DNA from: Candidatus Daviesbacteria bacterium | Lineage (GTDB): Bacteria; Patescibacteriota; Microgenomatia; Daviesbacterales; UBA10151 | Assembly (NCBI GenBank): GCA_030648645.1 | Contig: JAUSHL010000038.1 | Location: forward strand, 3,657 to 67,656 | Length of the DNA stretch: 64,000 nucleotides | Direction: 5' to 3' | Part shown: piece by piece, positions 4,608-53,982 of the stretch | How the letters are laid out: each line of letters starts with the position of its first letter | How positions within the stretch are numbered: position 1 is the stretch's first letter | Made by a program: the position numbers and the translations under genes | The notes under the pieces: model-generated | The model's database searches: none | What the model saw: the letters and a program-made list of their open reading frames with translations, nothing else | What the model was told of the DNA's origin: nothing

Positions 4608-4625
4608 TGTATAATAATAAATAAG

Positions 4626-5105
4626 ATGCCAAAACTTAATTTAAAACAAATTATTATTGCAATTGTCACAATAATTGGAGCATTACTGATCTTAATTTTT
4701 GGCAGAGGGTTATATTCTTCCCCACCAGCTTCTCAAAAAAACACAGCAGTAAAATCTGCCCAAACAGAGACAAAAGATGAAAATAATAAAGAAATAAAAG
4801 TAGTTTCCACTAACCCTGAAGATCTGGACGGCTCAACAATTTTACCCAACCAAACCATCGAAATAACTTTCAATCAGCCAATGGAAAACAGAGGTGAATT
4901 TAAAAATAAAATTGAACCTCCCGCAGATTATGAAATCAAGCTTTCTGATGACCGGAAAACTGCCAAAATTATTTTAGCCAAACCATTTAAATTAGGCACA
5001 GGTTATACTTTATTTATAAAATCTGATACAAAATTCGATGGAAAGAAAACTTTAGATAAAGAAATAATTTATCATTTTAATACAATATCATACAAAGGAG
5101 TTTAA
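4626..5105 (+). CDS. small secreted/membrane-anchored protein (N-terminal TM, possible Ig-like domain)
   Basis: N-terminal hydrophobic IIIAIVTIIGALLILIF; last gene of same-strand cluster. Confidence 0.3.
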   Translation: MPKLNLKQIIIAIVTIIGALLILIFGRGLYSSPPASQKNTAVKSAQTETKDENNKEIKVVSTNPEDLDGSTILPNQTIEITFNQPMENRGEFKNKIEPPADYEIKLSDDRKTAKIILAKPFKLGTGYTLFIKSDTKFDGKKTLDKEIIYHFNTISYKGV

Positions 5106-5169
5106 TTTTAAATTTTTAATTTTAAATTTTAAAATTGATTTAAAATTTGATTTTTGAGTTTTAAAATTA

Positions 5170-6270
5170 TCAACTTAGATTCACCGGCATTATAATATAT
5201 TGTAACCCCTCTTCTCCAATTGGTTTAATTAAAGTCGCAGATAAAATCCCGGAAAATTCCATTACTACCTTTGTGGTATTTAAATTAGAAAAAGCATCAA
5301 TTAAAAACTTAGTATTAAAAGCAATAGCAATATCTTCTCCCTCTTTTTCTGCTTCAAATTGTTTTTCCTGACTCCCCAACTCTTTTGCCTCAGAACTTAA
5401 AATAATTTTTCCCTCCAGACAATTTAATTTAACAATATTGGCTTCATTTCGGGAAAACACAGCTGCCAATTTTACTGCTTTCAAAAATCCACTTCTGTCT
5501 AAAATAACTTTAGTAATTACTTTTTCCGGAATAATTTTTTCCCAAGCCGGAAATTGTCCTTCAATCAAGCGGGAGGATACTTGGGTATTACCAAAAGAAA
5601 AAATCATTTGATTATTATCTTCCGACACGGCAATTTTAACCAAATCAGCAGAATCTTCTGAAATTAAACGGACAATTTCTTCAAAAGTCCTCTTTGGCAC
5701 TAAAGCTTTAAAAGAAGATGTTTCGGCAATCGGCACAATTTTATGTGCCAGACGATAACCGTCGGTGGCAACCAATTGTAGTTTTTTATCTTTTATCTCC
5801 GTTAAAATTCCGGTTAAAGTTGGTCTGCCATCATCCATGGCGGCGGCAAAAATAATTTCCGGCAAAGATTTAACTAAAATTTCCGATTCAATTGAAACTG
5901 TATCTTTCCCAAGTAAAGGAATTGATGGAAATTCCAAAGCCGAAATACCGTTTAATTTGGAAGAAAAAGTCGGAGTAGAAATTTCTATTTGATCATTACT
6001 TCCACTTATTTCAATTTTTTCACCTGATAAATTAGCAATTACTTCCACAAAAGTTTTAGCCGGCACTGTCACTTCTCCTTCTTCTAAAATTTCGGCATTA
6101 ATAAATTTTACTACGCCAATTTCTAAGTTTGTGGAAGAAAGTTTTAATTTTCCGGAAGAAGCCTGAACTAAAACATTGCCCAAAACCGGAAGTTGTGCAC
6201 GCACACCAGTTGATCTGGCGACAGCTTGCAGTGTGGGTATTAAATCCTGTTGTAAGATTATAAATTTCAT
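5170..6270 (-). CDS. dnaN: DNA polymerase III beta subunit (sliding clamp)
   Basis: N-terminus MKFIILQQDLIPTLQAVARSTGVRAQLPVLGNVLV typical of DnaN; 366 aa; adjacent to dnaA. Confidence 0.9.
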   Translation of the reverse strand: MKFIILQQDLIPTLQAVARSTGVRAQLPVLGNVLVQASSGKLKLSSTNLEIGVVKFINAEILEEGEVTVPAKTFVEVIANLSGEKIEISGSNDQIEISTPTFSSKLNGISALEFPSIPLLGKDTVSIESEILVKSLPEIIFAAAMDDGRPTLTGILTEIKDKKLQLVATDGYRLAHKIVPIAETSSFKALVPKRTFEEIVRLISEDSADLVKIAVSEDNNQMIFSFGNTQVSSRLIEGQFPAWEKIIPEKVITKVILDRSGFLKAVKLAAVFSRNEANIVKLNCLEGKIILSSEAKELGSQEKQFEAEKEGEDIAIAFNTKFLIDAFSNLNTTKVVMEFSGILSATLIKPIGEEGLQYIIMPVNLS

Positions 6271-6354
6271 ATTTTTATAATGAGTATAATTTTAAATTTT
6301 AAATTTTAAATTTTAAAATTGCTTTAAAATTTTAATTTTGGATTTTAAAATTAC

Positions 6355-6816
6355 TCATTTTCCTCTGGTGACAAACCCATGTACTTCTTCTTCACTAACT
6401 TTAATCAATCTAAAATTAACTCTCCCGGTTGTAATTAGGTTTTTAATGTGTTTTTCCTCTTCTGTCAAGACATGAAAATTTCCTGACTTTACTTCAATAA
6501 AATCAATTCTCTCATTATTTTTAATACCAATAAAATCTACAGGCTGACCTAAAGGAATAATCCGGTCATAATCATATCTAAGTTCAGCATAAGTTAAAAG
6601 CTCAGCCATTTTCCCCTTTTGCGGATTAATTGATCCCTGAATAGTTTGCAATACTCTGGCTGGTAAATCCTGTAATCCTTTGTACAGATCAATTAAATCA
6701 GTTGGAATATCACTCCCACCCTTGCGGTGAAGCCTGCCAAACAAATAAGCTACCAATAAGGCTAAAATACCTATTAAAATGTAAATAAAAGTTTGATCCA
6801 TTGTTAGTTTGTCCAC
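6355..6816 (-). CDS. membrane-anchored protein with putative PD-(D/E)xK nuclease-like fold
   Basis: N-terminal TM helix; PVDFIGI...(11 aa)...DFIEVKSG resembles D...(D/E)xK core of Hjc/Mrr-like nucleases; sits between dnaA and dnaN. Confidence 0.3.
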   Translation of the reverse strand: MDKLTMDQTFIYILIGILALLVAYLFGRLHRKGGSDIPTDLIDLYKGLQDLPARVLQTIQGSINPQKGKMAELLTYAELRYDYDRIIPLGQPVDFIGIKNNERIDFIEVKSGNFHVLTEEEKHIKNLITTGRVNFRLIKVSEEEVHGFVTRGK

Positions 6817-7124
6817 ATAGAGCCTGAACTACTTTTTGTAATTAATAAAATAGTAGTAGTATTTATAGGCAGTGTTGATAAGTGTATAAATAGGGTATAT
6901 TTATGAGTAATTGATTGGTGGATAAGCATAGAATCATTTTACAGCTTCAACGAACAACAAACAACAGTCTGTTTACTCTCGAGCTTTTGTCTTATTTTCG
7001 TGTGTAAAAAGTATAGTCAACTTGGGGATAAGTTAGTGGATAACTTCATGTGTAATGTGGAAAACTCTGGAAGAATGAAGAATGAAGAATGAAGAATGAA
7101 GAATTAAGAATTAAGAATTAAGAA
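6808..7124. promoter_or_regulatory. dnaA-dnaN intergenic region with a cluster of DnaA-box-like 9-mers; candidate oriC segment
   Basis: TTGTCCACA (6808-6816), TGTTGATAA (6873-6881, reverse of TTATCAACA), GTGGATAAG (~6919), GGGATAAG (~7025), TGGATAAC (~7037); AT-rich; heptamer tandem repeat at 7071-7127. Confidence 0.6.
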
Positions 7125-7127
7125 TTA
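7071..7127. repeat. 7-nt tandem repeat (AAGAATG x3 then AAGAATT x4) abutting dnaA stop codon
   Basis: Directly visible: gaagaatgaagaatgaagaatgaagaattaagaattaagaattaagaatta. Confidence 0.9.
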
Positions 7128-8459
7128 ATCCAATAATTTTTGCTTTATCTCTCCAATAATTTTTTGAATTTCACTGTCTGTATTTAAAATTACCCCAATT
7201 TTTTCTACGCCGTGCATAATAGTTGTGTGATCTCTTCCTCCCAACATTTCACCGATCTTTTCATAAGGTAGTTTACAGTCTTGATATAAGATATACATAG
7301 CAATCTGACGGGATCTGACGAGATCTTTTTTACGGTTTGGTCCCACTAAATCTGCCATTTTAATATCAAAATATTGATTAATACCGGCTAAAACCTTTTT
7401 TTGATCAATTTTAAAGCCACTGGTTACACTTACTTTTCCCAACAGAAATCGGACATTTTCCTCATTAAATTCTTTCCCTGTGAGTTTTAAGGTTTGAATA
7501 ATCTGCATTAATTTACCTTCTAACTCACGCCCATTGGTAGAGATATTTTCAGCAATTAAAGTTAAACAATTTTCCGGAATATCATCCCCTTTTTCCTTAC
7601 ATTTAGCCTTTAAAATTGCGACCCTAGTATCAAAATCAGGAAGTTGAATATCAACCATCATTCCTCCCTGAAAACGGGAAGCCAAACGGGGTTCTAATTT
7701 CTGAATTTCATGAGGAGGACGGTCGGCTGTGACAATAATTTGGATATTTTTACCTTGTAGATCATTAAAAGTGTGAAAAAATTCTTCCTGTGTTGAATCA
7801 CGGCCGGATAAAAATTGGACATCATCAATTAGTAATAAATTACAGCTCCTATATTTAGTTCTAAATTGGGTCATACTTTTGGTCTGAATCCCCTGTACTA
7901 AATCATTGGTAAATTGCTCCAGTGGTGAGTAAATTATTTTTAAATTAGGATTTTTTTTAAGAAGAGCGTGTCCTACACCGACCATTAAATGAGTCTTTCC
8001 TACTCCGGTTCCGCCATATAAAAATAAAGGATTGTAAGAAAGTCCGGGATTGGCAATGACAGCTTGGGCTGCAGCATAGGCTAGATTGTTAGAAAGTCCA
8101 ACCACAAAATTCTCCAGAGAATATTTGGGATTTAAGTTGGTAATATTAGTTTTTGGGGTACTGGAAAATAAATTTAGTTCAAAATTATCATCTTCCGGAT
8201 TTTCTTCAGAGCGAGATTTAGTACTGCTCACTCTCAAATCAATTGGAATGGGCTTACCTAGGATCTGTTTTACAGCTTCTTCTAATACATCCTGATGTTT
8301 AGTATGGATTTCCTGCTTGATAAAATGAGTTGCTACAAAAATCACAAATTTTCCATCCACTTCCCCATCACAACTAGCCTTAGCAAACCACATTTTGTAA
8401 TTTATCGGAGAAACCTGATCTTTTATTATTTCCAGTACTTTATGCCATTCTTTATTCAT
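7125..8459 (-). CDS. dnaA: chromosomal replication initiator protein DnaA
   Basis: AAA+ Walker A GGTGVGKTHL, DnaA box-binding C-terminal domain; 444 aa; followed by dnaN. Confidence 0.95.
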   Translation of the reverse strand: MNKEWHKVLEIIKDQVSPINYKMWFAKASCDGEVDGKFVIFVATHFIKQEIHTKHQDVLEEAVKQILGKPIPIDLRVSSTKSRSEENPEDDNFELNLFSSTPKTNITNLNPKYSLENFVVGLSNNLAYAAAQAVIANPGLSYNPLFLYGGTGVGKTHLMVGVGHALLKKNPNLKIIYSPLEQFTNDLVQGIQTKSMTQFRTKYRSCNLLLIDDVQFLSGRDSTQEEFFHTFNDLQGKNIQIIVTADRPPHEIQKLEPRLASRFQGGMMVDIQLPDFDTRVAILKAKCKEKGDDIPENCLTLIAENISTNGRELEGKLMQIIQTLKLTGKEFNEENVRFLLGKVSVTSGFKIDQKKVLAGINQYFDIKMADLVGPNRKKDLVRSRQIAMYILYQDCKLPYEKIGEMLGGRDHTTIMHGVEKIGVILNTDSEIQKIIGEIKQKLLD

Positions 8460-8647
8460 ATGTTATATCCAAAATTCTTATTTTGGATTCAAGCCATTTA
8501 ATGAGAATTATGCATCCGAGTTAAATTGGCTTATCCACATCCCAGATTCTAGTGTATAAGTTATCCACATTGAAAGATGGAGGAAGTATAAATAACTAGA
8601 TCAATTTTTATATTTAAAGATAATAATTTTTGTGATACTGTAAATAT
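8460..8647. promoter_or_regulatory. dnaA upstream region with two perfect DnaA boxes; candidate oriC segment / dnaA autoregulation
   Basis: TTATCCACA at 8531-8539 and 8561-8569. Confidence 0.65.
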
Positions 8648-9298
8648 ATGACAAATAATGATTTAGTTTATGGATTTTTAGACGAGTCTCCTAATTTACA
8701 GGATAAATTTGCTTTCTTTTCAGTAGTTATTATATTAAGCACTAACCCAGATGAGAAAAGTTATAGATCAATTTTTAAAAAAACTCGCAAGAATGTTCTT
8801 AAAAAGAAACAGAAAGAAATCCCTGAATTAAAGTTTGCCAATTCTACTCCTCAAGTAAGAATTAAAATACTGAAGGCCATTGGTAAAAGATCTATTAAAA
8901 TATCTGCTTATATTTTGGATAAAGCAGGAAGACGTATACCAGATACGCCTGAAAATTATGGTATTGTGGCTGGTTTTGCGATTAGTGAGGTATTAAAGAA
9001 ATACCCTGTTATTGTTTTAACTTTTGATAAAAAATATACCAAAGTTAAAGATCAAGAAGAAGTGGAGAGAGTAACATTAAAAGTTGTAGCTAAAGTTTTA
9101 AAGAAAGGTGTATTACAGTTTAAGGAGCATGGTGATAGCAAAGCAAACAGTATACTTCAAATGGCAGATTTTGTAGCTGGGGCAGTAAGTTATAAATACA
9201 ATTTGAATGATAAGAGCTACTGGGAGTTGATAAAGGATTTAATTGAACAGGAAAATAAGGAATCATGGATAGATATTAAAGCAATTTATAAGCAATAA
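8648..9298 (+). CDS. DUF3800-like protein (accessory cassette gene)
   Basis: N-terminal VYGFLDESPN resembles the Y-x-DESG signature of DUF3800; bracketed by repeat modules. Confidence 0.3.
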   Translation: MTNNDLVYGFLDESPNLQDKFAFFSVVIILSTNPDEKSYRSIFKKTRKNVLKKKQKEIPELKFANSTPQVRIKILKAIGKRSIKISAYILDKAGRRIPDTPENYGIVAGFAISEVLKKYPVIVLTFDKKYTKVKDQEEVERVTLKVVAKVLKKGVLQFKEHGDSKANSILQMADFVAGAVSYKYNLNDKSYWELIKDLIEQENKESWIDIKAIYKQ

Positions 9299-9485
9299 AA
9301 AAGAATAGTCAATCCCTGGGCTCCGATTCTCACCGCCTTTTTCGAGGGTAAACCCCGATGGGTCTACTTTGCACGGAATAAGACCGCTATTGCTGGACTA
9401 GAGATCCCAGGACTTACTCGACTATTCTTGATTAAGATTGTACCAAATTTTCACCAATTTTTCAAGGCCCAGATTTTAAAATAAC

Positions 9486-9722
9486 TCAAGCAAAGGAAGG
9501 AAGTATAAGCTTATTTAGTTTCACTAAATATCTTGAACCCAAAATAAGTATTTTGGGTATAATCTAATTCAACTCAAGCTTGTAAAAATTCGTTGAATAT
9601 CTTGAATTCAAAATGAAGCATTTTGAATATAAACCAATTTAACTCGTCCACCAGTGGCGGACTCATTAAATAGTTTGAACCAAAAATTTGCAAATTTTTG
9701 GTATAAATAACTAGATCAATTT
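9486..9722. repeat. ~235-bp direct repeat copy 1 (three tandem -35/palindrome/-10-like modules plus a GC hairpin), left flank of the HEPN/MNT cassette
   Basis: Near-identical to 10586-10812; contains TTGAAC-ccaaaatNNNattttgg-gTATAAT style units. Confidence 0.85.
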
Positions 9723-9736
9723 TTGAGTTCTGGGAG

Positions 9737-10093
9737 TTATTGGATTTTATCTTTCACAAAGCTTGTAATTTCTTTAGCAAACTTATAAGCTTCTTCTGAT
9801 TTTTCCTTAGTAAAATGAATAAATTCTGAAAGATCTGGGTAGCGTGAAGGAATGTAATAGGTGTTAAGAGCAACACACTCGTTTCTTAAACTCTCAAAAG
9901 ACTGGTCACTTTTAATACATTCTTCAAGTAGTGCTCTTAAATCGTGAATTTTCTTGATGTCTTTTTCTTGACTAATCAAATAAGCTTTTAGAGCTTTTTC
10001 CACTGCTTGCTGGGATGTAAAACAAGCTCCATACCAAATTTTTCCTTCCAGACTATTTTTGTAACTATTCAGAGTTTCCCAGTAGACTGTCAT
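9737..10093 (-). CDS. HEPN domain protein (toxin component of HEPN/MNT pair)
   Basis: C-terminal YYIPSRYPD motif characteristic of HEPN proteins partnered with minimal nucleotidyltransferases; 118 aa. Confidence 0.6.
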   Translation of the reverse strand: MTVYWETLNSYKNSLEGKIWYGACFTSQQAVEKALKAYLISQEKDIKKIHDLRALLEECIKSDQSFESLRNECVALNTYYIPSRYPDLSEFIHFTKEKSEEAYKFAKEITSFVKDKIQ

Positions 10094-10157
10094 CGCGAGG
10101 GTCGAAACTTCGACCCGTGGCGATCTAATTAGATTGCTTCGCTACGCTCGCAATGAC
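10088..10157. mobile_element. MITE-like GC-rich palindromic element (tgtcatcgcgagg...ctcgcaatgac)
   Basis: Terminal inverted repeats shared with >10 other copies in window; its terminal tgtcat supplies the ATG of the HEPN gene. Confidence 0.6.
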
Positions 10158-10261
10158 GATTTTATTGGGAAGAACTAATTAGTTACCTATTTTTTGTCCA
10201 GGAAAGATCATCTAATGCATAATTAAGCCATTTCTGAGATGACTTATTTATTGATTTACGA

Positions 10262-10558
10262 TTATCCATATACAATTTTACCAGTCTCGTTAGCCTCTTT
10301 TATAAAAAGATTATCTAGTTTTGCTTTTTCGAATTCCTGGGGTGTTAACACAAATATGTCAACAGCAGTTACTGTTCTTAGAAGTAGATGTACTTGTTTT
10401 TGTCTTTCAAGAAAAGGCAGGGTAGTTTTTTTTATAACGACAAGATCTACATCACTATCTGAGCTGGGTTTACCATTAGCATAAGATCCAAAAAGAATTA
10501 TTTTTTCCGGGTTATAAGGCATAATTTGATCAATAATGTCTTGAACTACTGAATTCAT
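10262..10558 (-). CDS. minimal nucleotidyltransferase (MNT, antitoxin component of HEPN/MNT pair)
   Basis: LFGSYANGKPSSDSDVDLVVI = GS...D.D nucleotidyltransferase motif; 98 aa. Confidence 0.7.
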   Translation of the reverse strand: MNSVVQDIIDQIMPYNPEKIILFGSYANGKPSSDSDVDLVVIKKTTLPFLERQKQVHLLLRTVTAVDIFVLTPQEFEKAKLDNLFIKEANETGKIVYG

Positions 10559-10585
10559 GAGTACATTGTATCATAAAAAAAAAGG

Positions 10586-10812
10586 GGGGGGAGGAAGTAT
10601 AAGCTTATTTAGTTTCACTAAATATCTTGAACCCAAAATTTTGGAGAATTTTAGGTATAAACCAATTTAACTCAATTTTACAACTCTCGTTAAATGGCTT
10701 GAATTCAAAATGAAGCATTTTGAATATAAACCAATTTAACTCGTCCACCAGTGGCGGACTCATTAAATAGTTTGAACCAAAAATTTGCAAATTTTTGGTA
10801 TAAATAACTAGA
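10586..10812. repeat. ~230-bp direct repeat copy 2, right flank of the HEPN/MNT cassette
   Basis: Near-identical to 9486-9722 (shared ggaagtataagcttatttagtttcactaaatatcttgaaccc... and ...tccaccagtggcggactcattaaatagtttgaaccaaaaatttgcaaatttttggtataaataactagatca). Confidence 0.85.
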
Positions 10813-10863
10813 TCAGTTTTTGGGGTTGATAAATTATGCCTCTGTGGTTTATACTTAATAAGT

Positions 10864-11001
10864 ATGCCAAAGCGCACATATCAACCAAAAAAATTAAAAA
10901 GATTGCGAAAACATGGATTCATCAAAAGAATGGAAACTCGTGATGGACAAAAAGTTTTAAAAAGAAGAAGAGCCAGGGGTAGAAAAAAGTTGACGGTATA
11001 G
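10864..11001 (+). CDS. rpmH: 50S ribosomal protein L34 (absent from the ORF track because it is only 45 aa)
   Basis: Translates to [45 protein letters not shown], a classic L34; precedes rnpA. Confidence 0.9.
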
Positions 11002-11003
11002 TC

Positions 11004-11114
11004 TGTCATTCTGAGCACTTCGATGTCATTGCGAGCGAAGTGAAGCAATCTCAGTGTAAACTCAGCGAAGAATCTCTTGAGATTGCTTCTCCGGCTTCGC
11101 CGGATCGCAATGAC
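11004..11114. mobile_element. MITE-like palindromic element between rpmH and rnpA
   Basis: gtcattgcgagcgaagtgaagcaatctc ... gagattgcttctccggcttcgccggatcgcaatgac forms one long imperfect palindrome. Confidence 0.6.
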
Positions 11115-11125
11115 AATAAAATAAA

Positions 11126-11470
11126 ATGCTTCCAAAAAATAAAAGACTTAATCTCAACAAAGATTTTAGATGGGTGGCTTCTGGGAAAAGAATTGAAAAT
11201 AATCTGGTAAAGATGTTTTTAAAAATGAGTCCACCATCTGATGTAGAATTACCACAACCCAAAATAGGAATTTCTCTATCTAAAAATGTTTTTAAGAAAG
11301 CTGTGGATAGAAACAGAGCAAGGCGTCTTGTTTCCAAAGCTTTAGAAAACCTGTATAATGAATTGCCAAGCGGGTTAAATATTGTAGCAATGCCCAAAAA
11401 AGATATTCTGGAAATGAACTCAAATGAGATTACCAAGAACTTGGAAGAGCTATTAAAGAAAGTTTGGTGA
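11126..11470 (+). CDS. rnpA: ribonuclease P protein component
   Basis: Position after rpmH; basic 114-aa protein with RNase P protein-like N-terminus. Confidence 0.8.
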   Translation: MLPKNKRLNLNKDFRWVASGKRIENNLVKMFLKMSPPSDVELPQPKIGISLSKNVFKKAVDRNRARRLVSKALENLYNELPSGLNIVAMPKKDILEMNSNEITKNLEELLKKVW

Positions 11471-11562
11471 ATTTTAAATTTTTAATTTTAAATCAATTTT
11501 TAATTTTTAAACATTTAAACATTAGAAATTCATTAGAAATTATTAATTAGAAATTAAAAATT

Positions 11563-11763
11563 ATGAAACAGATTATAATTTGGCTAATAAATTTTTATCA
11601 GACCTTTTTATCTTTTGATAAAGGGATGTTGGCTATCTTTGCTCCGGGTGGGGCTTGCAAAAACTCCCCCACTTGTTCAGAATATACAAAACTTATGATT
11701 AAAAAACACGGAAGTGTTAAAGGTATAATAATGGGTGGAAGGAGAATTATCTCGTGCAGGTAA
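11563..11763 (+). CDS. yidD: membrane protein insertion efficiency factor YidD
   Basis: SPTCSEY motif (YidD family CxxCSxY); sits between rnpA and yidC. Confidence 0.7.
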   Translation: MKQIIIWLINFYQTFLSFDKGMLAIFAPGGACKNSPTCSEYTKLMIKKHGSVKGIIMGGRRIISCR

Positions 11764-12587
11764 TAACTGATATTTTTAATACTTTCTTCATGGGACCAAT
11801 CCTTAATTTATTGGTACTGATTTTGGATGGTCTAAATTTCCTGCATATTCCGGGAGCTTTTGGTTTATCTATTATTATCCTGACTATTTTAATTAGAATT
11901 TTAGTTTGGCCATTAATGACTAAACAGCTAAAATCTGCCAAGAAAATGCAGGATTTAAAACCTCATTTGGATGCTTTAAAAGTCAAACATAAAGGTGACA
12001 AGAAAGCCTTTGCGGCAGCACAAATGGATCTTTATAAACAACATGGAGTAAATCCTGCCGGTGGATGTTTGCCGGTTTTAATCCAATTCCCGGTGTTGAT
12101 TGCTCTTTATCAAACTATTTTTGCTTTTTTTAATGGCCCCACAGGTTTGGTTCAGATAAATAATATGCTCTATCCTTTTGTCCCTCACCTAAAAACAGTC
12201 CCCAGTTTAGATTTTCTTGGAATTAGTTTAGCAGTTAAGCCTTCAGAATTTAGTCAATATGGTTTTTTACTTTTAGCAATTCCGCTGATCACGGCTCTTC
12301 TAACTTTTTTCCAGTCAAAAATGATGATGCCACCAAAACCATTAAAGGAATACCCAGCAGATTCTCCTAAAGAAAAGAAAGACAAAGTAAGTACTGAGGA
12401 TGCAATGGGGGCAATGCAGGGACAAATGATGTACATGATGCCTGTAATGATTGGTTATTTTGCTTTTCAGTTCCCCATTGGTTTGGCTCTTTATTGGAAC
12501 ACCATGACAATTTTAGGAATTTACCAACAATACAAAGTTTCCGGCTGGGGTGGAATGGAGAGTTGGGTGAAGATTATTAAAAAGTAG
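11754..12587 (+). CDS. yidC: membrane protein insertase YidC (short Gram-positive-type form)
   Basis: YidC/Oxa1 core ...LYKQHGVNPAGGCLPVLIQFPVLIALY...; 277 aa with multiple TM segments. Confidence 0.85.
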   Translation: MQVITDIFNTFFMGPILNLLVLILDGLNFLHIPGAFGLSIIILTILIRILVWPLMTKQLKSAKKMQDLKPHLDALKVKHKGDKKAFAAAQMDLYKQHGVNPAGGCLPVLIQFPVLIALYQTIFAFFNGPTGLVQINNMLYPFVPHLKTVPSLDFLGISLAVKPSEFSQYGFLLLAIPLITALLTFFQSKMMMPPKPLKEYPADSPKEKKDKVSTEDAMGAMQGQMMYMMPVMIGYFAFQFPIGLALYWNTMTILGIYQQYKVSGWGGMESWVKIIKK

Positions 12588-12600
12588 AGATTTTTGTTGT

Positions 12601-12788
12601 GTCATTGCGATCCGGCGAAGCCGGAGTGGCAATCTTTTCTATCTACAATAAACTAATTTAACTCGTCCGCCAACCGGCGGACTCGTTAAATATTTTGAAC
12701 CCAAAATTTTGATTAAAAGTTGTAGACTGGAGTATTTTGGGTATAGATTGCTTCGTCGTCCGCCAGCTGGCGGACTCCTCGCAATGAC
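12601..12788. mobile_element. composite MITE-like element (gtcattgcga...ctcgcaatgac termini) enclosing a hairpin plus promoter-like module
   Basis: Termini match the MITE family; interior carries atttaactcgtccgccaaccggcggactcgttaaat hairpin and ttgaacccaaaatttt...attttgggtata unit. Confidence 0.5.
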
Positions 12789-12924
12789 AGTAATTTTTTC
12801 TGATTGACTGATCCTAGATTTTCCTTTATACCCACATTACTTTAATGGGTTCAAACTTTTTAATGAGACCGCCAGCTGGCGGTTGCAAAATCGAATTAAA
12901 ATAGTTTATACTTACCTTCATTGT

Positions 12925-13416
12925 ATGGAACAAAAAGTTTCGGAAATTTTAGAAAATATTTTAGGACTCCTGGCCCTTGAGGGTTCATTTGAAGTTGTAG
13001 AAAATCCGGAAGAAGTTAGTGTAACTATTGAAACTACAGACCCGGGAAGGCTGATTGGTTTTAGAGGAGAAACTTTAGATTCTTTACAACTCATTGTAAA
13101 TTTAATTTTAAGCAGACAAATAAGTGATGAGGAAAAGTTTAAAAGAGTAGTGATTGATGTTGAAGGCTGGAGAAAAAATAAGGAAGCAGATTTACAAAGA
13201 AGGGCAGAAGATTGGGGCAAAGAAGTACTGGAAACCGGAAAAGAAATAGAACTTGAACCAATGCCTTCTTGGCAAAGAAGAATTGTACATATGGTAATTT
13301 CAGAAACAAAAGGTGTGGAATCAGAAAGTATGGGAGATGGACGAGATAGACATTTAGTCCTCAGACCGGAAATTACTAAAAAAGAAGTTACCAAAAAAAC
13401 TGCAAAGAAAGAATAA
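12925..13416 (+). CDS. jag: Jag/KhpB-like RNA-binding protein (KH + R3H domains)
   Basis: R3H motif region RRIVHMVISETKGVES...GDGRDRHLVL; classic position after yidC; start moved to ATG 12925 because 12883-12924 lies inside a repeat element. Confidence 0.65.
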   Translation: MEQKVSEILENILGLLALEGSFEVVENPEEVSVTIETTDPGRLIGFRGETLDSLQLIVNLILSRQISDEEKFKRVVIDVEGWRKNKEADLQRRAEDWGKEVLETGKEIELEPMPSWQRRIVHMVISETKGVESESMGDGRDRHLVLRPEITKKEVTKKTAKKE

Positions 13417-14751: not shown

Positions 14752-14832
14752 TTCAATAGGTCGCAAGGTCTTGCGAACTTGAGAGCAAGTTCTTAAACCA
14801 AATTTAAAATTTAAAATTAAAAATTTAAAATT

Positions 14833-15246
14833 ATGAACAAGATTATTATAAATACAGATGGTGGGTCGAGAGGTAATCCGGGTCCAGGTGCTTGTGCTTT
14901 TGTGATCTCGGATGAACATGGAAAACAAATTGCCGGAGAAGGGAAGTTCTTGGGTGTTTGTACCAATAATGAAGCCGAATATGAAGCAGTTATTTTGGCC
15001 TTTGAGTGGGTGGTAAATAATTTGGCAAATAATTTACCTGAGAATATAGCGTTCAAAGCCGATTCGAAATTAGTGGTAGAGCAACTTTCTGGCAGGTTCA
15101 AAGTCAAAAATCCTCGTATTGCAGTGTTACATGGGCGGGTGAGGGTATTGGAAAAAAATATGTCTGAAATTACTTACACTTATATTCCGCGTGAGGAGAA
15201 TTATCAGGCAGACAATCTGGTAAATCAAATCCTGGATCTTCAGTAA
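14833..15246 (+). CDS. rnhA: ribonuclease HI
   Basis: NTDGGSRGNPGPGACAFVI...TNNEAEYEAVILAFEW... matches RNase H catalytic DEDD core. Confidence 0.85.
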   Translation: MNKIIINTDGGSRGNPGPGACAFVISDEHGKQIAGEGKFLGVCTNNEAEYEAVILAFEWVVNNLANNLPENIAFKADSKLVVEQLSGRFKVKNPRIAVLHGRVRVLEKNMSEITYTYIPREENYQADNLVNQILDLQ

Positions 15247-15368
15247 TTTTAAAATTAAAAATTTAAAATTTAAAATTGACGCAGTCTTATACCTTTCCTC
15301 TCTCTTGATTTGAGCATGAAATATTACTAAGATGTGTGAAGTGGGTGATATCTATCATCTAAATTAAT

Positions 15369-18176: not shown

Positions 18177-18185
18177 CAGTTGTAC

Positions 18186-18317
18186 TGTCATCCCGGACTT
18201 CGTCCAAAGGACGATCAGCCTTTGGCTGATGATCCGGGATCCATGAATTTATTTATATAGATTCCTGCCCCTCGGTCCTGAGTCCCTCGGGATCGAAGGA
18301 CTTTCGCAGGAATGACA
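18186..18317. mobile_element. MITE-like element, subfamily 2 (tgtcatcccgg...caggaatgaca)
   Basis: First 60 bp nearly identical to the copy inside valS at 21304-21388. Confidence 0.6.
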
Positions 18318-19223: not shown

Positions 19224-19751
19224 ATGGAAGGTTATAAAAAGTTGGCAAGCTATATTTTAGCTACAGTGATTCATGATTTAACTGCTATATTTGTTAAACG
19301 TTGGATAAGTCCATATTCCCGGACAACAGATCAAATGGAACAGGCAGCCAGATCCGGTAAACAAAATATTGCCGAAGGGTATACAGTCCAAAGCCTGGAG
19401 AGTTATATAAAACTTTGTGGAGTAGCTGAAGGCTCAATTAAAGAACTGGCAATTGATTTTGAAGATTTTTTAAGACAAAGAGGATATTCTATTTGGGATA
19501 AGAATGATGAAAGAGTTAGGGGATTTAGGGCTTTTAGGGCTGTTTGGAAAATACCTAATATCCCCAATACCCCAAATTTACCTAATAATCCTGAAGAAGC
19601 AGCAAATATGCTTTTAACTTTTTGCCAGATGGAGTCTTTTCTTCTTCATAGGCAAATTGAAGCTTTAAGAAATAAGTTTATTTCAGAGGGTGGTTTTAGA
19701 GAAAATTTATTCAAAGAAAGGTTGATAGAAAAGAAAAAGCAAATTAGATAG
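19224..19751 (+). CDS. four-helix-bundle protein of the 23S rRNA intervening-sequence-encoded family (TIGR02436-like), with C-terminal extension
   Basis: MEGYKKLASYILATVIHDLTAIFVKRW...EQAARSGKQNIAEGY resembles IVS-protein family; here free-standing. Confidence 0.45.
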   Translation: MEGYKKLASYILATVIHDLTAIFVKRWISPYSRTTDQMEQAARSGKQNIAEGYTVQSLESYIKLCGVAEGSIKELAIDFEDFLRQRGYSIWDKNDERVRGFRAFRAVWKIPNIPNTPNLPNNPEEAANMLLTFCQMESFLLHRQIEALRNKFISEGGFRENLFKERLIEKKKQIR

Positions 19752-21996
19752 TTTTTGGCCAATTTTTAGTCATAATAGATTCTCCTGGAGCTATCTTTTG
19801 CCATAACTCTTCTGATAAAAAAGGCATAAAAGGATGGAGGAGCTTTAAGCAGGTTTGGAAAACATATTCTAAAACTGGTTGAGCCTCAGCTCTTCTGTCT
19901 TTGCTTTTTTCAATATAAACATCAGCAAACTTATGCCAGATAAATTCATATAATGTTTCTGTGGCCAGATGAAGCTGGAAGGATTCTAAATTTTTGGTCA
20001 CATCATTAATAGTTTTGTTTAGTTCTTCTAGTATTTTTTTATTATCGATATGAGATTGCTTCTCCGGCAATTGCCGGATCGCAATGACGTCAGTGCCGAG
20101 CGTTGTTGAAATGTCATTGCGAGGAGCCGTAGGCGACGTGGCAATCTCTTTTGGTTTTAGTTCATAAATAAATCTGTAAATATTTTTTATCTTTGTCCCA
20201 AAGTTCCGGTAATTTCTGCATCTTTCATCTATTATTTGTCGGGAGGTTCTGCCATCACGGCCGGGGGCAGAGTAGGAATAGAGTGCCATGCGGGTAGCAT
20301 CTACTCCCCACAGTTGTACCAAATCATAAGGATTAATACCATTGCCTAATGATTTGGAAAACTTTTTTCCATCTATTCCTCTGAGTGTTCCATGGAAAAA
20401 CATGTTTTTAAAAGGAATACTATCCTTAAACCAAAGACTTAACATAATTTGGCGGGCAATCCAAAGGTATTTAATCTCCGGAGCAGTTAGTTCAAAATCC
20501 CAGGGGAAGTATTTTTCCAATTCATCAGATTTGTCAGGTTTACCCTCCGAAGCTTTAGCGGAGGAGGGCCAATTAAGTGTAGATAAGGGCCACATTCCGG
20601 AAGAAAACCAAGTGTCTAAAACTTTCTCTTCCTGCACCCAGTCTTCTCCAGGTGAGTCTTTTGATACTTGTATTTGATTCCCTTTGTACCATATCGGTAT
20701 ACGGTGTCCCCACCAAAGATTGCGTGAGATACACCAATCATGAATTCCACTTAGCCAGTCTCCCAGAATTTTGTCATAGTTTTTGGGTAAAAAGTTGATT
20801 TTATCTAAATTCTTTAAAGCTTTTTCTGCCAATGGTTTCATTTTGATAAACCATTCCTCGGAGATTAAAGGCTCAACAGTAGTTTTGCATCTTTCGCAAA
20901 CAGGGACTGAATGAGTATATTCTTCTACTTTTTCGATTGTTCCATTTTGTTCTAAAATTTCAGCAACTTTTGCTCGGGCCTCGGCAATTTTTAAACCCTG
21001 CAAATCTCCGGCTAGATCAGTCATTTTTCCTAATTTATCAATGGCATGTAAAATCGGAAGGTTATGATCTTTGCCGATGGCAAAGTCCAAAGGATCATGA
21101 CCGGGGGTAATTTTTAAAGCCCCAGTCCCAAAATCTTTTTCAACACGGGTATCTTCAAAAATTGGGATTTGATTATTGTTTAATGGATTGATGGCAAATT
21201 TTCCAATAAATTTGGCAAATTTTGGATGATTGGGAAAAACTGCAATACCGCAATCTGCATAAATTGTTTCCGGACGGGCGGTGGCAATAGTAATAAATTG
21301 ATCTGTCATCCCGTACTTCGTCCAAAAGACGATCAGCCTTTGGCTGATGATACGGGATCCATGGATTCCCGCTTCCGCGGGAATGACATTATTGTTTTGT
21401 ATTTGATATTTAACATAATAAAGCTTTTCTTTTCTTTCCTCATATTCCATTTCCACATCTTCAATGGCAGTGTTGCATTTGGGACACCACTCTACAATAT
21501 AAGCCCCTTTATAAATTAAATCTTGCTCCCACAAAGTTTTAAATTCTACAAAAGTGGCTTGTTGAATTTTGGGATCCAAGGTAAAAACTTCTCTTGACCA
21601 GTCAGCCGAAATACCTAAAAAAGTCCAGGTGTTATGAAAAGAATTATAAATTTTTTCTTTAAATTTCCAAGCCCTTTTCATCCAACTATCATATCCTAAC
21701 TTTTGTTTGGAAAGATTTTCTTTGGCCAGTTCTTTGTTAAAAGTTGATTCAAAAATAATGCCGGCATGATCAACCCCCGGTAATAATAAAACATCAAATC
21801 CTTGCATTCGTTTGAAACGGGCAACTGCATCCAAAATTGATTGTTGCATAGCATGACCGAGGTGCAAATCTCCATTGACATTGGGTGGAGGCATTAAAAG
21901 GGAATAAGGTTTTTTAGAAGACTTAGGATCTGCTTTAAACAGCCCCGCCTTTTCCCAGAAATCATACAATTTTTGTTCTGAAGTTTGTTCATCCAT
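19744..21996 (-). CDS. valS: valine--tRNA ligase (short form) carrying two in-frame repeat-element insertions
   Basis: HIGH-type motif PPPNVNGDLHLGHA, KMSKS-type KFSKSLGN, editing-domain region WCPKCNTAIEDVEME; insertions at 20052-20148 and 21304-21388. Confidence 0.8.
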   Translation of the reverse strand: MDEQTSEQKLYDFWEKAGLFKADPKSSKKPYSLLMPPPNVNGDLHLGHAMQQSILDAVARFKRMQGFDVLLLPGVDHAGIIFESTFNKELAKENLSKQKLGYDSWMKRAWKFKEKIYNSFHNTWTFLGISADWSREVFTLDPKIQQATFVEFKTLWEQDLIYKGAYIVEWCPKCNTAIEDVEMEYEERKEKLYYVKYQIQNNNVIPAEAGIHGSRIISQRLIVFWTKYGMTDQFITIATARPETIYADCGIAVFPNHPKFAKFIGKFAINPLNNNQIPIFEDTRVEKDFGTGALKITPGHDPLDFAIGKDHNLPILHAIDKLGKMTDLAGDLQGLKIAEARAKVAEILEQNGTIEKVEEYTHSVPVCERCKTTVEPLISEEWFIKMKPLAEKALKNLDKINFLPKNYDKILGDWLSGIHDWCISRNLWWGHRIPIWYKGNQIQVSKDSPGEDWVQEEKVLDTWFSSGMWPLSTLNWPSSAKASEGKPDKSDELEKYFPWDFELTAPEIKYLWIARQIMLSLWFKDSIPFKNMFFHGTLRGIDGKKFSKSLGNGINPYDLVQLWGVDATRMALYSYSAPGRDGRTSRQIIDERCRNYRNFGTKIKNIYRFIYELKPKEIATSPTAPRNDISTTLGTDVIAIRQLPEKQSHIDNKKILEELNKTINDVTKNLESFQLHLATETLYEFIWHKFADVYIEKSKDRRAEAQPVLEYVFQTCLKLLHPFMPFLSEELWQKIAPGESIMTKNWPKTI

Positions 21997-44359: not shown

Positions 44360-44475
44360 ACTTGTGAATTATAAGCCAATTTAACTCAAATTGCAACTTT
44401 CGTTAAATGGCTTGAGCCCAAATTAAAGTATTTGGGCATAACAAAATTTAGGCACAAAAGCAAATCTGGGTGCGA

Positions 44476-44643
44476 TTAAACTTCCACAAAAGCTCTAATA
44501 GCTTTTTCTGTGTTCTCATAAGCTTCTTTTTTAGTTTTACCCTGTGACATACATCCATATAAATTTACCACATCAGACACATAACCTTTATAGTCCTTGT
44601 CATAAGTCAATTTAATTATGTAATCCAATTTGTCGTGTCTCAT
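44476..44643 (-). CDS. small HicB-like (UPF0150) protein, 55 aa, absent from the ORF track; orphan
   Basis: Translates to MRHDKLDYIIKLTYDKDYKGYVSDVVNLYGCMSQGKTKKEAYENTEKAIRAFVEV; pattern Y.A..E.D.dGGY....P.LPGC.SQGDT.eEA..N..EAI. Confidence 0.35.
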   Translation of the reverse strand: MRHDKLDYIIKLTYDKDYKGYVSDVVNLYGCMSQGKTKKEAYENTEKAIRAFVEV

Positions 44644-50457: not shown

Positions 50458-50583
50458 TTTTTATGGCAAGTTAGTTAATTATATCCAAAACACTCGCTTA
50501 ATCAAAGTTTTGGATTCAAGCTATTTAACGAGACCGCCAGCTGGCGGTTGCAAATTCGAGTTAAATTAGCTTATACTTAAAAT

Positions 50584-53813: not shown

Positions 53814-53982
53814 TAGTTTATTTTAACTGTTTCAGAAGACAGAATGAAGTCTTTACTTTGTTTAAATCATTGATATAAGATGGATATAAGCTAATTTAAC
53901 TCGAGTATGTAGCTCTCGTTAAATATCTTGAACCCAAAATATTATAATATTTTGGGTATAGAGCAAGAAAGGAAAGTTTTAA

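What the first reader, a model, noticed from the sequence alone, without database searches (positions are those of the whole stretch)
12650..12910. Dispersed intergenic promoter-plus-hairpin repeat units
Short units related to the cassette repeats recur in many intergenic regions. Examples are 8470-8525, 12650-12740, 12840-12910, 44360-44445, 50500-50580 and 53870-53950. Each has ...tttaactcg-[GC palindrome such as gtccgccaaccggcggac / accgccagctggcggt]-cgttaaat... followed by ttgaacccaaaat...attttgggtata. They read like portable terminator/promoter modules. The palindromic spacer between the -35-like and -10-like hexamers is unusual and could be an operator for a global regulator.
Basis: seen in the sequence. 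Interest (0 to 1): 0.55.

Follow-up and report, generated by a model that had tools for sequence, protein, structure and literature searches.

The report
Mobile double-hairpin promoter repeat in Daviesbacteria
The window, from an uncultured Candidatus Daviesbacteria genome, carries 12 copies of a 58-99-base non-coding repeat with two covarying hairpins between TATA boxes, which was copied into sites in front of genes and most likely supplies outward-facing promoters; this is a new variant of a known kind of mobile promoter repeat.

Summary
A profile finds exactly 12 copies in 8 intergenic places and none in genes. All six listed sites are copies. The other six form two tandem triplets between dnaA and rpmH.

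Each unit reads TATA, hairpin A (12-bp bulged stem), GA, hairpin B (9-bp stem), TATA. Both stems covary strongly (15 of 21 pairs).

Homologous units occur in other Microgenomates MAGs at unrelated loci. About 127 kb of related, largely syntenic DNA has none. At three orthologous sites the relative has a single TATA-like site where the window has TATA-unit-TATA, and two of these sites are the -10 box of a gene with almost no leader.

A -35-like hexamer sits at each hairpin apex, 16-18 bp from the terminal TATA. Across genomes, start codons follow either end within 6-14 nt.

Best reading: a copy-and-paste, MITE-like element carrying bidirectional promoters. The GC palindrome is optional (6 of 12 copies) and occurs mainly where the left side abuts a gene's 3' end.

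The operator idea is not supported, and terminator function is unproven. No TIRs or transposase were found, and there are no transcript data. It works like Neisseria Correia elements and 'mobile promoters', and I found no description of it in CPR bacteria.

The parts
8464..8535 (-). Unit U1, short form with AT-rich apex in hairpin A. Its right end abuts the dnaA start (8459). Its left end is formed by a perfect DnaA box (TGTGGATAAG).
   Evidence: The related locus L013 lacks this unit, and there the DnaA box is followed directly by TCATGGCATAAAG.
8585..8609 (+). Unit-free ('empty') copy of the cassette junction, GGAGGAAG-TATA-AATAACTAGATCA, upstream of the DUF3800 gene.
   Evidence: The filled copies at 9495 and 10589 have three units between the same flanks. 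L013 has another empty copy and a copy with about 1.5 units.
9504..9705 (+). Tandem triplet U2-U3-U4 (9504-9561, 9558-9631, 9628-9705). Neighbouring units share one TATA. U4 carries the GC palindrome (9648-9660).
   Evidence: (D4, D10).
10598..10802 (+). Tandem triplet U5-U6-U7 (10598-10659, 10656-10728, 10725-10802), between the MNT start (10558, - strand) and rpmH. U7 carries the GC palindrome (10745-10757).
   Evidence: rpmH has its own promoter-like site at 10826-10855.
12647..12745 (+). Unit U8, long form: hairpin B has a 26-nt loop containing TTGTAG. The GC palindrome GTCCGCCAACCGGCGGAC sits at the apex of hairpin A. The unit lies behind the yidC stop codon.
   Evidence: (DNA fold -19.1 kcal/mol, z -4.75).
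12746..12786 (+). REP-like element of a different family (GATTGC...GCAATG) that contains the same GC palindrome. It lies between U8 and U9 and is not part of the unit.
   Evidence: (D2, D12).
12827..12910 (-). Unit U9, inverted relative to U8. Read on the + strand, its left face gives TTGCAA-18-TATACT, 12 nt before the jag start (12925). The GC palindrome lies just upstream of that -35.
   Evidence: (12883-12912). In L025 (97% Jag identity) similarity to the window resumes exactly at TTATAC|TTACCTTCATTGTATGG.
44370..44440 (+). Unit U10, short form. Its left face reads TTGCAA-17-TATAAT, 7-8 nt before the TTG start of the M23 peptidase gene (44359, - strand).
50480..50575 (-). Unit U11, with an intermediate hairpin B loop (15 nt). 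It holds both TTGCAA and the GC palindrome in hairpin A. It fills the spacer between the TatD stop (50584) and the start of the 599-aa gene (50457). Its right face reads TTGATT-16-TATAAT.
   Evidence: Empty site in L027...TTTTAGGTATAA|TTGTGGGGGTATGAGAATATT.
53885..53960 (+). Unit U12, short form, between divergent small membrane-protein genes (53813 on the - strand, 53983 on the + strand).
   Evidence: The L027 ortholog lacks exactly this segment: GATGATTTAA|GAGCAAGAAAGG.

Best explanation
The units are copies of a small non-autonomous, copy-and-paste repeat. It is MITE-like but has no detectable terminal inverted repeats. It is found in Candidatus Daviesbacteria and other Microgenomates (CPR bacteria).

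Anatomy (shown): TATA, hairpin A, GA, hairpin B, TATA.
- Hairpin A stem: AARCY-A-ATTTAAC ... GTTAAAT-RGYTT.
- Hairpin B stem: ACCCAAAAT ... ATTTTGGGT.
- Nearly every conserved base lies in a stem, and both stems keep pairing through compensatory changes.

Insertion (shown by comparison with related genomes): the unit sits at a TATA-type site and has TATA on both sides. At two of the three clean orthologous sites, that TATA is the -10 box of a gene with almost no leader.

Function (inferred): each hairpin apex carries an outward-facing -35-like hexamer.
- Left face: TTGCAA in hairpin A, 17-18 bp from the left TATA.
- Right face, long form: TTGTAA in the hairpin B loop, 16 bp from the right TATA.
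- Right face, short form: TTGAAC, at 18-19 bp when the loop is 3-4 nt.
Together with the terminal TATA plus two flank bases, each end rebuilds a sigma-70-type promoter. Insertion into a -10 box therefore keeps the downstream gene expressed and can also drive a divergent gene.

The GC palindrome is an optional insert at the apex of hairpin A. It occurs mainly where the left side faces a gene's 3' end and no leftward -35 is needed. It may insulate or terminate read-through (speculative).

The hairpins themselves are most likely needed in single-stranded DNA for copying or mobilisation, or are kept perfect by templated repair of palindromes. Which of these applies is unknown.
For: Family and specificity:
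- 12 copies and no weaker ones.
- The patterns have 0 chance matches in shuffles.
- All copies are intergenic.

Structure:
- 94.6% of cells pair.
- 15 of 21 pairs carry double changes.
- 0 of 500 shuffles reach the observed score, and slid controls pair at 18-53%.
- The five extension pairs were taken at fixed offsets, so arm-picking did not bias them. They also covary (6-26: AU 13, GC 7; 8-24: UA 14, CG 7).
- DNA folds have z-scores of -2.7 to -5.8.

Mobility:
- Homologous units lie at unrelated loci in at least 6 other Microgenomates MAGs or metagenomes.
- There are none in L017-L029, 127 kb of held sequence that includes duplicate loci and is largely syntenic with the window.
- The yidC-jag spacer is 337 nt here. 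It is 56 to about 220 nt, without units, in five relatives at 77-97% Jag identity.
- Filled-versus-empty junctions are seen at TatD/glycosyltransferase-like gene, jag and the 69-aa gene.
- The paralogous cassette junctions hold 0, about 1.5, 3 and 3 units.

Promoter function:
- The -35/-10 geometry holds on both faces.
- ATG follows the right end after 6-13 nt in L001, L002 (ruvX), L006, L014 (cca) and L016.
- ATG follows the left end after 6-14 nt in L004, L007, L009 (efp), L012, L014, U9 (jag) and U10.
- In this genome 24 of 60 ORFs have a TATAAT-like hexamer 4-14 nt before the start, against 12% of all ATG triplets. Only 9 have an SD-like motif.
- The GC palindrome replaces the leftward -35 in 7 of 9 units behind a 3' end but in only 1 of 11 divergent units (p=0.0045).
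- The hairpin B loop is conserved in sequence but unpaired, as expected for protein-read DNA.
Against: - There are no transcript data, so every promoter or terminator statement is inference.
- rpmH and the DUF3800-III RNA have their own promoter-like sites between the unit and the gene. The tandem arrays are therefore not simply their promoters.
- U4 and U8 face no gene start on either side.
- Short forms with 5-8-nt loops put TTGAAC 20-23 bp from the -10, which is too far.
- For U1, TATAAC ends only 2 nt before the dnaA ATG.
- Promoter function does not explain why the stems covary.
- Terminal inverted repeats are not significant against shuffles.
- No transposase, integrase or RAYT domain was found in 47 window ORFs.
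- The flanking direct repeat is imperfect in about 9 of 23 units, and its length (TA, TATA or TATAA) cannot be fixed.
- In L025 the whole yidC-jag spacer differs from the window, so that site is not a clean simple insertion.
Confidence: 0.6

Rival explanations
1. A purely structural or selfish palindromic repeat, REP/BIME-like or PATE-like. The hairpins are all that matters, for mobilisation through single-stranded DNA or for binding nucleoid proteins. The promoter-like hexamers would be by-products of AT-rich sequence. The position next to start codons would only reflect the few places in a compact genome where an insertion is tolerated.
For: - Almost all conserved bases are in stems, and covariation is very strong.
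- Even the 'TT' of TTGAAC pairs with the 'AA' of TATAA.
- Promoter-like matches are not enriched over shuffles in this AT-rich DNA (22 found against 18.3 expected).
- Some units face no gene (U4, U8).
- Tandem arrays with variable copy number are seen.
Against: - The unpaired hairpin B loop, with TTGTAA at a fixed 16 bp from TATA, is conserved across genomes.
- The apex TTGCAA is retained where a divergent gene follows and replaced by the GC palindrome where none does (p=0.0045).
- Start codons follow both ends at 6-14 nt in about 12 independent loci.
- No RAYT or TnpA gene is in the window.
- The two hairpins differ in sequence, unlike the left-end and right-end hairpins of IS200/IS605 elements (own knowledge).
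Confidence: 0.2
2. A site for site-specific recombination that bounds mobile gene cassettes, like attC or Xer/dif sites. The dispersed copies would be secondary sites.
For: - Unit arrays sit exactly at the repeated junction GGAGGAAG-TATA-AATAACTAGATCA. This junction flanks the DUF3800 and HEPN/MNT cassettes between dnaA and rpmH.
- A related strain has different cassettes at the same junctions.
- The consensus arms ATTTAAC/GTTAAAT fit the attC core pattern RYYYAAC/GTTRRRY and resemble the outer XerD arm of dif (own knowledge).
Against: - One junction copy has no unit at all (8585-8609), so the junction rather than the unit is the cassette boundary.
- Arm variants ATTTAGT/ACTAAAT and ATTTTGC/GCAAAAT break the AAC/GTT core.
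- The spacing between the arms varies from 3 to 43 nt.
- No integrase or recombinase is in the window.
- Most units lie between housekeeping genes that are syntenic in relatives.
Confidence: 0.07
3. A structured RNA element: a cis-acting stabiliser or processing site at a 3' or 5' end, or a small RNA, acting through the two hairpins after transcription.
For: - Two hairpins with compensatory changes.
- Several units lie directly behind a gene's 3' end (U8, U11, L002, L006, L015), where they would be read through.
Against: - No Rfam family matches, even at E up to 10.
- There are almost no G-U intermediates, and mismatches give no strand preference: C.A on one strand in some copies, U.G in others. 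That points to a DNA-level palindrome.
- Units occur in both orientations relative to flanking genes.
- Many sit between divergent genes, where neither strand would be transcribed from the neighbours.
- Genes start 6-14 nt after the unit, so it is not a leader.
Confidence: 0.06
4. One reading: the palindrome is an operator for a global regulator, located inside a promoter spacer.
For: - Inverted repeats are located in promoter-like DNA.
- The same sequence recurs in front of many unrelated genes.
Against: - The half-sites covary instead of being conserved.
- Their spacing varies from 3 to 43 nt.
- The GC palindrome is absent from half the copies and is shared with the REP-like elements.
- The downstream genes have no functional coherence: dnaA, jag, ruvX, cca, efp, HU, galE-like and others.
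Confidence: 0.04

Closest known systems
Correia elements (CREE/NEMIS) of Neisseria
   Same: - Around 100-nt, non-coding, dispersed intergenic repeats.
- Often located 5' of genes, and polymorphic between related strains.
- They carry functional outward promoters and an IHF site (Delihas 2011, PMC3184786).
- From my own knowledge: they duplicate a TA target, and their TATA-like termini contribute the -10 box.
- Here likewise: TATA on both sides, a -10 at the junction and a -35 inside. A WATCAANNNNTTR-like match lies in the long-form hairpin B loop, which is a weak lead only.
   Different: - Correia elements have 26-bp terminal inverted repeats that pair end to end. Here no significant TIR was found.
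- Instead, two different internal hairpins lie side by side, and their stems covary.
- There is no sequence similarity.
- The host is a CPR bacterium.
- Promoter activity is measured for Correia elements and only inferred here.
Putative mobile promoters (Matus-Garcia, Nijveen and van Passel 2012, PMC3488235)
   Same: 50-100-nt upstream regions with at least 80% identity, reused in front of non-homologous genes both within and between genomes. This family fits that operational definition.
   Different: That concept is purely statistical and specifies no structure or mechanism. Here the unit has defined boundaries (TATA), a double-hairpin architecture, empty sites in relatives and tandem arrays.
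REP/BIME elements and pneumococcal BOX/RUP repeats
   Same: Extragenic palindromic units, in modular and tandem arrangements with variable copy number (for the classes of repeat).
   Different: - REPs are single GC-rich palindromes mobilised by RAYTs (own knowledge). No RAYT gene was found here.
- The window has its own separate REP-like family, GATTGC...GCAATG, with 16 copies.
- The unit is AT-rich, has two distinct hairpins in a fixed order, and has TATA flanks.
Integron attC sites
   Same: An imperfect palindrome whose outer arms in the consensus fit RYYYAAC...GTTRRRY, with a variable centre. Copies occur at cassette junctions.
   Different: - The arm variants break the AAC/GTT core.
- The arm-to-arm length is 17-57 nt, against 57-141 for attC (own knowledge).
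- No IntI gene is present.
- Most copies are not next to cassettes.

Membership tests
MITE (miniature inverted-repeat transposable element) | Small, non-coding, multi-copy and extragenic | tested here: met
   Units are 58-99 nt. There are 12 copies in 8 intergenic loci and none in genes.
MITE (miniature inverted-repeat transposable element) | Terminal inverted repeats | tested here: not met
   Local alignment of the left 34 nt against the reverse complement of the right 34 nt, in 7 long-form units, scores no better than shuffles (21-361 of 500 shuffles reach the observed score).
MITE (miniature inverted-repeat transposable element) | Target-site duplication, with a single copy of the target at the empty site | tested here: inconclusive
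   TATA lies on both sides in most units. Empty sites show a single TATAA (L027, L025, junction 8585-8609) or TTTAA (L027, U12 site). The repeat length (TA, TATA or TATAA) cannot be fixed, and the flank repeats are imperfect in about 9 of 23 units.
MITE (miniature inverted-repeat transposable element) | Presence/absence polymorphism between related genomes | tested here: met
   No unit in L017-L029 (127 kb held, including duplicate loci; largely syntenic), although the flanking genes are orthologous. Units sit at other loci in other genomes.
MITE (miniature inverted-repeat transposable element) | A cognate autonomous element or transposase | tested here: not met
   No transposase, integrase or RAYT domain in 47 window ORFs. 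The rest of the genome could not be searched.
Sigma-70-type promoter | -35 and -10 hexamers separated by 16-18 bp | tested here: met
   Right face, long form: TTGTAA/TTGCAA/TTGATT-16-TATAAT/TATAAC. Left face: TTGCAA/TTGTAA-17/18-TATAAT/TATACT. Short forms have 18-23 bp, so they meet the criterion only in part.
Sigma-70-type promoter | A transcription start about 7 nt downstream of the -10 | not testable with these tools
   No transcript data. Indirect support: start codons 6-14 nt after the -10 in about 12 loci, and the same arrangement at 24 of 60 window ORFs.
Intrinsic terminator | GC-rich stem followed by a T-run | tested here: not met
   The consensus scan of 8300-13100 finds no terminator at any unit. 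The GC stem is followed by TCGTTAAATATTTTG, which is only moderately T-rich.
Operator of a dimeric regulator | Conserved half-sites at fixed spacing | tested here: not met
   The arms covary, and the spacing between them is 3-43 nt.
Integron attC | Conserved R''/R' cores (RYYYAAC/GTTRRRY) and an integron integrase nearby | tested here: not met
   The variants ATTTAGT/ACTAAAT and ATTTTGC/GCAAAAT break the cores. No integrase was found.
Any Rfam RNA family | A covariance-model match | tested here: not met
   No match at the gathering threshold in the window. None at E up to 10 in 8400-13000, apart from DUF3800-III at 9302-9428, which is a different feature.
IS200/IS605-derived PATE or REP/RAYT element | Similar subterminal hairpins at both ends, no target duplication, and a Y1 HUH transposase | tested here: not met
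   The two hairpins have different sequences. TATA lies on both sides. Units right of the putative origin are in mixed orientation (+,-,+,-,+). No HUH or Y1 domain was found. The defining features themselves are from my own knowledge.

The most novel reading that the evidence does not exclude
The element may be a 'promoter-swapping' mobile repeat that specifically targets the TATA of -10 boxes of leaderless genes. It would replace the native upstream promoter with its own module. Each -35 sits at the apex of an extrudable hairpin, so promoter strength would depend on cruciform formation, and hence on supercoiling. This would be a mobile, structure-gated bidirectional promoter, a kind not described for any bacterium.
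Probability: 0.15. Interest if true: 0.75.

Novelty: new variant of a known kind. Interest (0 to 1): 0.5.

Why it matters
Almost nothing is known about how CPR (Patescibacteria) bacteria start transcription, or about their mobile non-coding DNA.

- This family gives a ready-made, testable candidate promoter: a -35/-10 pair immediately in front of leaderless start codons. It recurs in several Microgenomates genomes.
- Promoters of core genes (dnaA, jag, a large membrane glycosyltransferase-like gene) appear to have been replaced by a copied module in one lineage but not in its close relatives. That would be direct rewiring of housekeeping expression in a reduced genome.
- For annotation, the units and their tandem arrays generate spurious ORFs (for example 10605-10877) and can mislead start-codon calls (dnaA).
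- If the hairpin-apex position of the -35 matters, it would be an unusual link between DNA structure and promoter activity.

Tried and rejected
- Rfam, at gathering threshold and at E up to 10: nothing at the units.
- Viral contig scans with both patterns: 0 hits, so there is no sign of a phage origin.
- The consensus promoter/terminator scan is not informative in this AT-rich DNA. It found 22 promoter-like sites against 18.3 expected, and no terminator at the units.
- Reading tttaac...gttaaat as -35/-10: rejected, because the two pair with each other and their spacing varies.
- oriC element: rejected. Five of the eight loci lie far from dnaA. The DnaA-box cluster is at 6809-7064, with two more boxes at 8531 and 8561.
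- attC or dif-like site: rejected because of arm covariation, variable spacing and the absence of a recombinase.
- TIR test: not significant.
- Strand of a possible RNA, judged from G-U versus C-A mismatches: no consistent strand.
- Exact-protein look-ups of the window's own Jag protein found no record, so the rest of the 68-kb source contig could not be read.
- The M23-peptidase orthologous site in L028 is too diverged to serve as an empty-site comparison.
- Papers on MITEs or promoter repeats in Patescibacteria or Microgenomates: none found in the held library.

Full report
CONTEXT. The window has about 34% G+C. Its Jag protein is 100% identical to a protein from a 68,474-nt NCBI contig named 'MAG: Candidatus Daviesbacteria bacterium', so the source is a CPR/Microgenomates genome. 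It contains the classical origin-proximal gene set: dnaN, dnaA (7125-8459, - strand), rpmH (10864-11001), rnpA, yidD, yidC (11754-12587) and jag (12925-13416). Between dnaA and rpmH lie accessory cassettes:
- a DUF3800 gene (8648-9298);
- an Rfam DUF3800-III RNA (9302-9428, - strand);
- a HEPN/nucleotidyltransferase pair (9737-10558, - strand).

The sequence at the stated coordinates and the repeat finder (D5, D7, D9, D19, I3, I6, I20) show one recurring unit. I aligned 12 copies and built an nhmmer profile from them. The profile recovers exactly those 12 at E of 1e-19 to 8e-12, and the next hit has E=0.36. Two degenerate patterns each match 7 copies, with 0.00 matches expected in shuffles. 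All copies are intergenic, although mechanical ORFs cover about 92% of the window. The region 12650-12910 holds two units in inverted orientation with an unrelated REP-like element between them.

ANATOMY. Each unit reads TATA, hairpin A, GA, hairpin B, TATA.
- Hairpin A has a 12-bp stem with one bulged A: AARCY-A-ATTTAAC ... GTTAAAT-RGYTT. Its interior varies from 3 to 43 nt.
- Hairpin B has a 9-bp stem: ACCCAAAAT ... ATTTTGGGT. Its loop is 3-8 nt in 'short' forms (9 of the 12 window copies) and 25-29 nt in 'long' forms (one window copy, 12647-12745, and most copies in other genomes). The copy at 50480-50575 has an intermediate 15-nt loop that keeps the start of the long-form loop sequence.

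I tested pairing on a loop-excised alignment of 23 distinct units from this window and other genomes:
- 94.6% of cells pair;
- 15 of 21 pairs carry changes on both sides;
- none of 500 shuffles reaches the observed covariation;
- sliding the partners drops pairing to 18-53%.

The arm positions of the inner stems were chosen by best pairing, which biases them. The five outer pairs of hairpin A were taken at fixed offsets, and they covary just as clearly (AU 13 and GC 7; UA 14 and CG 7). One-sided (G-U) states are almost absent, and the few mismatches favour neither strand. This fits a DNA-level palindrome better than an RNA. Folded as single-stranded DNA, the units are much more stable than shuffles (z of -2.7 to -5.8). 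RNAalifold on ten long forms predicts only these two hairpins. It leaves the long hairpin B loop unpaired, although the loop is conserved in sequence: TTTTGATTAAAAGTTGTAAATTGGAGT.

THE GC PALINDROME IS OPTIONAL. It occurs in 6 of 12 copies. A motif search for it finds 8 sites in the window, and 2 of them lie in an unrelated REP-like family, GATTGC...GCAATG, which has 16 copies. It either replaces the apex of hairpin A or is inserted beside it.

RELATIVES AND MOBILITY. These include Candidatus Daviesbacteria JAQTZF01, Microgenomates JBAZXP01 and a 44% G+C MAG whose hairpin A reads ATTTTGC/GCAAAAT. They lie next to unrelated genes: ruvX, cca, efp, HU, a galE-like gene, recJ-like and others. In contrast, L017-L029 contain no unit at all. 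These loci total 127 kb of held sequence, including duplicate loci. Most are syntenic with the window. They were fetched through Jag and TatD homologs and have about 75-89% nucleotide identity with the window.
- The yidC-jag spacer is 337 nt here. It is 56 to about 220 nt, without units, in five relatives.
- TatD to 599-aa gene junction. L027 reads stop-GTTTTAGGTATAA|TTGTGGGGGT-ATGAGAATATT. The window reads stop-ATTTTAAGTATAA|[unit]GGATATAA|TTAACT...ATGAGAATATT. The unit therefore sits exactly at the TATAAT box in front of that gene, with TATA(A) on both sides.
- jag. In L025 (97% Jag identity), similarity to the window resumes exactly at the unit's terminal TATA, which is jag's TATACT box.
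- 69-aa gene. L027 lacks precisely the unit.
- Cassette junction. GGAGGAAG-TATA-AATAACTAGATCA occurs with 0 units (8585-8609), 3 units (9495...) and 3 units (10589...) in the window. In the related L013 it occurs with 0 and about 1.5 units.
- dnaA. L013 lacks the unit in front of dnaA.

Sequences this similar at non-orthologous sites, together with empty sites in relatives, show copying rather than independent evolution or vertical conservation.

PROMOTER READING (INFERRED).
- Left face. The apex of hairpin A usually reads TTGCAA or TTGTAA, 17-18 bp from the left TATA. For jag this gives TTGCAA-18-TATACT, which the consensus scan also picks up.
- Right face, long forms. The hairpin B loop carries TTGTAA, TTGCAA or TTGATT, 16 bp from the right TATA.
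- Right face, short forms. With 3-4-nt loops, TTGAAC lies 18-19 bp away. With longer loops the spacing is 20-23 bp and the geometry is poor.
- Start codons after the right end: 6-13 nt in L001, L002, L006, L014 and L016.
- Start codons after the left end: 6-14 nt in L004, L007, L009, L012, L014, U9 and U10. A further 8 faces have a start within 20-55 nt.
- This matches the genome's general habit. 24 of 60 ORFs have a TATAAT-like hexamer 4-14 nt before the start, against 12% of all ATG triplets. Only 9 have an SD-like motif.
- Units whose left side abuts a gene's 3' end have the GC palindrome in place of the leftward -35 in 7 of 9 cases. Units with a divergent gene on the left have it in 1 of 11 (Fisher p=0.0045). 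This is what selection on a used -35 would produce.

WHAT DOES NOT FIT.
- rpmH and the DUF3800-III RNA have their own promoter-like sites between the array and the gene.
- U4 and U8 face no gene start.
- The U1 TATAAC ends 2 nt before the dnaA ATG.
- The terminator scan finds nothing at the units.
- No significant terminal inverted repeat exists.
- No transposase, integrase or RAYT domain was found in 47 ORFs of the window.
- Promoter function does not explain stem covariation. Either the hairpins serve copying or mobilisation in single-stranded DNA, or templated repair of quasi-palindromes keeps them perfect (established mutational mechanism, own knowledge). I cannot decide between these.

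COMPARISON WITH KNOWN SYSTEMS. Functionally the closest are the Correia elements of Neisseria. These are intergenic repeats of about 100-150 bp, polymorphic between strains, often 5' of genes, with functional outward promoters and an IHF site (PMC3184786). Also close are the 'putative mobile promoters' defined statistically by Matus-Garcia et al. (PMC3488235). The unit fails the TIR criterion of a canonical MITE. It is not a REP, an attC site, an operator or any Rfam family (see the membership table). I found no paper describing MITEs or promoter repeats in Patescibacteria or Microgenomates in the held library.

VERDICT. Its hexamer assignment and operator idea are not supported, and the terminator role is unproven. 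The best explanation is a MITE-like, TATA-flanked double-hairpin element with outward promoters (confidence 0.6). It is a new variant of a known kind, and I rate its interest at 0.5.

Noticed in passing
window 8585-8609, 9495-9510 with 9702-9724, 10589-10604 with 10799-10821; L013 (reverse complement) about 785-815 and 1690-1790: A repeated junction, GGAGGAAG-TATA-AATAACTAGATCA, bounds accessory cassettes between dnaA and rpmH: the DUF3800 gene plus DUF3800-III RNA, and the HEPN/MNT pair. A related strain (L013/L010) carries a different MntA/HepT-type pair at the same junction, followed by DUF3800. This looks like an att-like hot spot for cassette integration next to the origin region.
   Followed up: partly
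window 9302-9428 (-): Rfam DUF3800-III RNA (52 bits, E=2e-9), directly downstream of and antisense to a DUF3800 gene (8648-9298). It has its own TTGAAA-17-TACAAT promoter-like site at 9465-9437. The function of these RNAs is unknown (Weinberg 2017, PMC5737381).
   Followed up: partly
window, 16 sites, e.g. 10132, 11027, 11081, 12603, 12746, 20054, 20115, 22345, 22763, 22847, 28289, 39610, 39671, 61572, 62937, 62987: A second, REP-like repeat family, GATTGC...[GC hairpin]...GCAATG. Several copies lie inside long ORFs. Three lie in the TsaD-like ORF 22029-23348, which is 439 aa here against 376 aa in relative L020 and gives three separate Pfam stretches. This suggests in-frame insertions or broken ORF calls.
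   Followed up: partly
window 6809-7125 and 8531-8569: Six one-mismatch DnaA boxes cluster in the 308-nt spacer downstream of dnaA (6809-7064), followed by a 7-nt tandem repeat, GAATGAA/GAATTAA (7066-7125). Two perfect TTATCCACA boxes lie upstream of dnaA. The minimum of cumulative GC skew is at about 6-8 kb. This is the likely oriC.
   Followed up: partly
window 8459-8535 versus L013: The unit in front of dnaA appears to have changed the DnaA N-terminus. The window has ATG-AAT-AAA-GAA-TGG (MNKEW...). The related L013 lacks the unit and would have to start at a GTG inside the DnaA box (V/M-DKS-W...).
   Followed up: partly
whole window: Gene starts are mostly leaderless or have very short leaders. 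24 of 60 long ORFs have a TATAAT-like hexamer 4-14 nt upstream of the start, against a 12% background at all ATG triplets. Only 9 have an SD-like motif.
   Followed up: partly
window 5103-5170, 6286-6354, 11470-11510, 14793-14834, 15242-15279: AT-only repeat blocks of the type AATTTTAAATTTTAAAATT flank several genes, in both orientations (D1, D3, D6, I2, I7, I8). Their function was not examined.
   Followed up: no
window 18180-18249 and 21298-21367: A 70-nt repeat (91% identical) with an internal GC-rich palindrome, TGTCATCCCGGACTTCGTCCAAAGGACGATCAGCCTTTGGCTGATGATCCGGGATCC. One copy is intergenic. The other lies inside the 750-aa ORF 19744-21996.
   Followed up: no
long-form units, e.g. window 12700-12720; L001, L004, L005, L012, L014, L016: The reverse strand of the long hairpin B loop reads AATCAAAATTTTG. 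This fits the IHF consensus WATCAANNNNTTR (recalled from memory) in 8 of 11 long-form or intermediate units, counted by eye from the sequences. The AAAATTTT...AAAAG stretch upstream of the -35 also resembles an UP element. Both could be chance in AT-rich DNA.
   Followed up: no
window 10576-10592: A homopolymer run, A9 followed by G8 (AAAAAAAAAGGGGGGGG), lies between the MNT start and the first unit of the second triplet. It could be a slippage-prone tract.
   Followed up: no
window 1249-2988 and neighbouring ORFs 13-5105: A TraG/VirB4-like P-loop ATPase (PF19044, PF12846) with adjacent unknown ORFs and a Big_5-domain protein lies upstream of dnaN. The same block is conserved in relative L020, so it is a conserved secretion- or pilus-like cluster rather than a recent island. 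The window also holds several toxin-antitoxin pairs (35185-35723, 42522-43062, HicB-like 34444-34719 and 44476-44643, PIN 28628-29038, Fic 23864-24280).
   Followed up: partly
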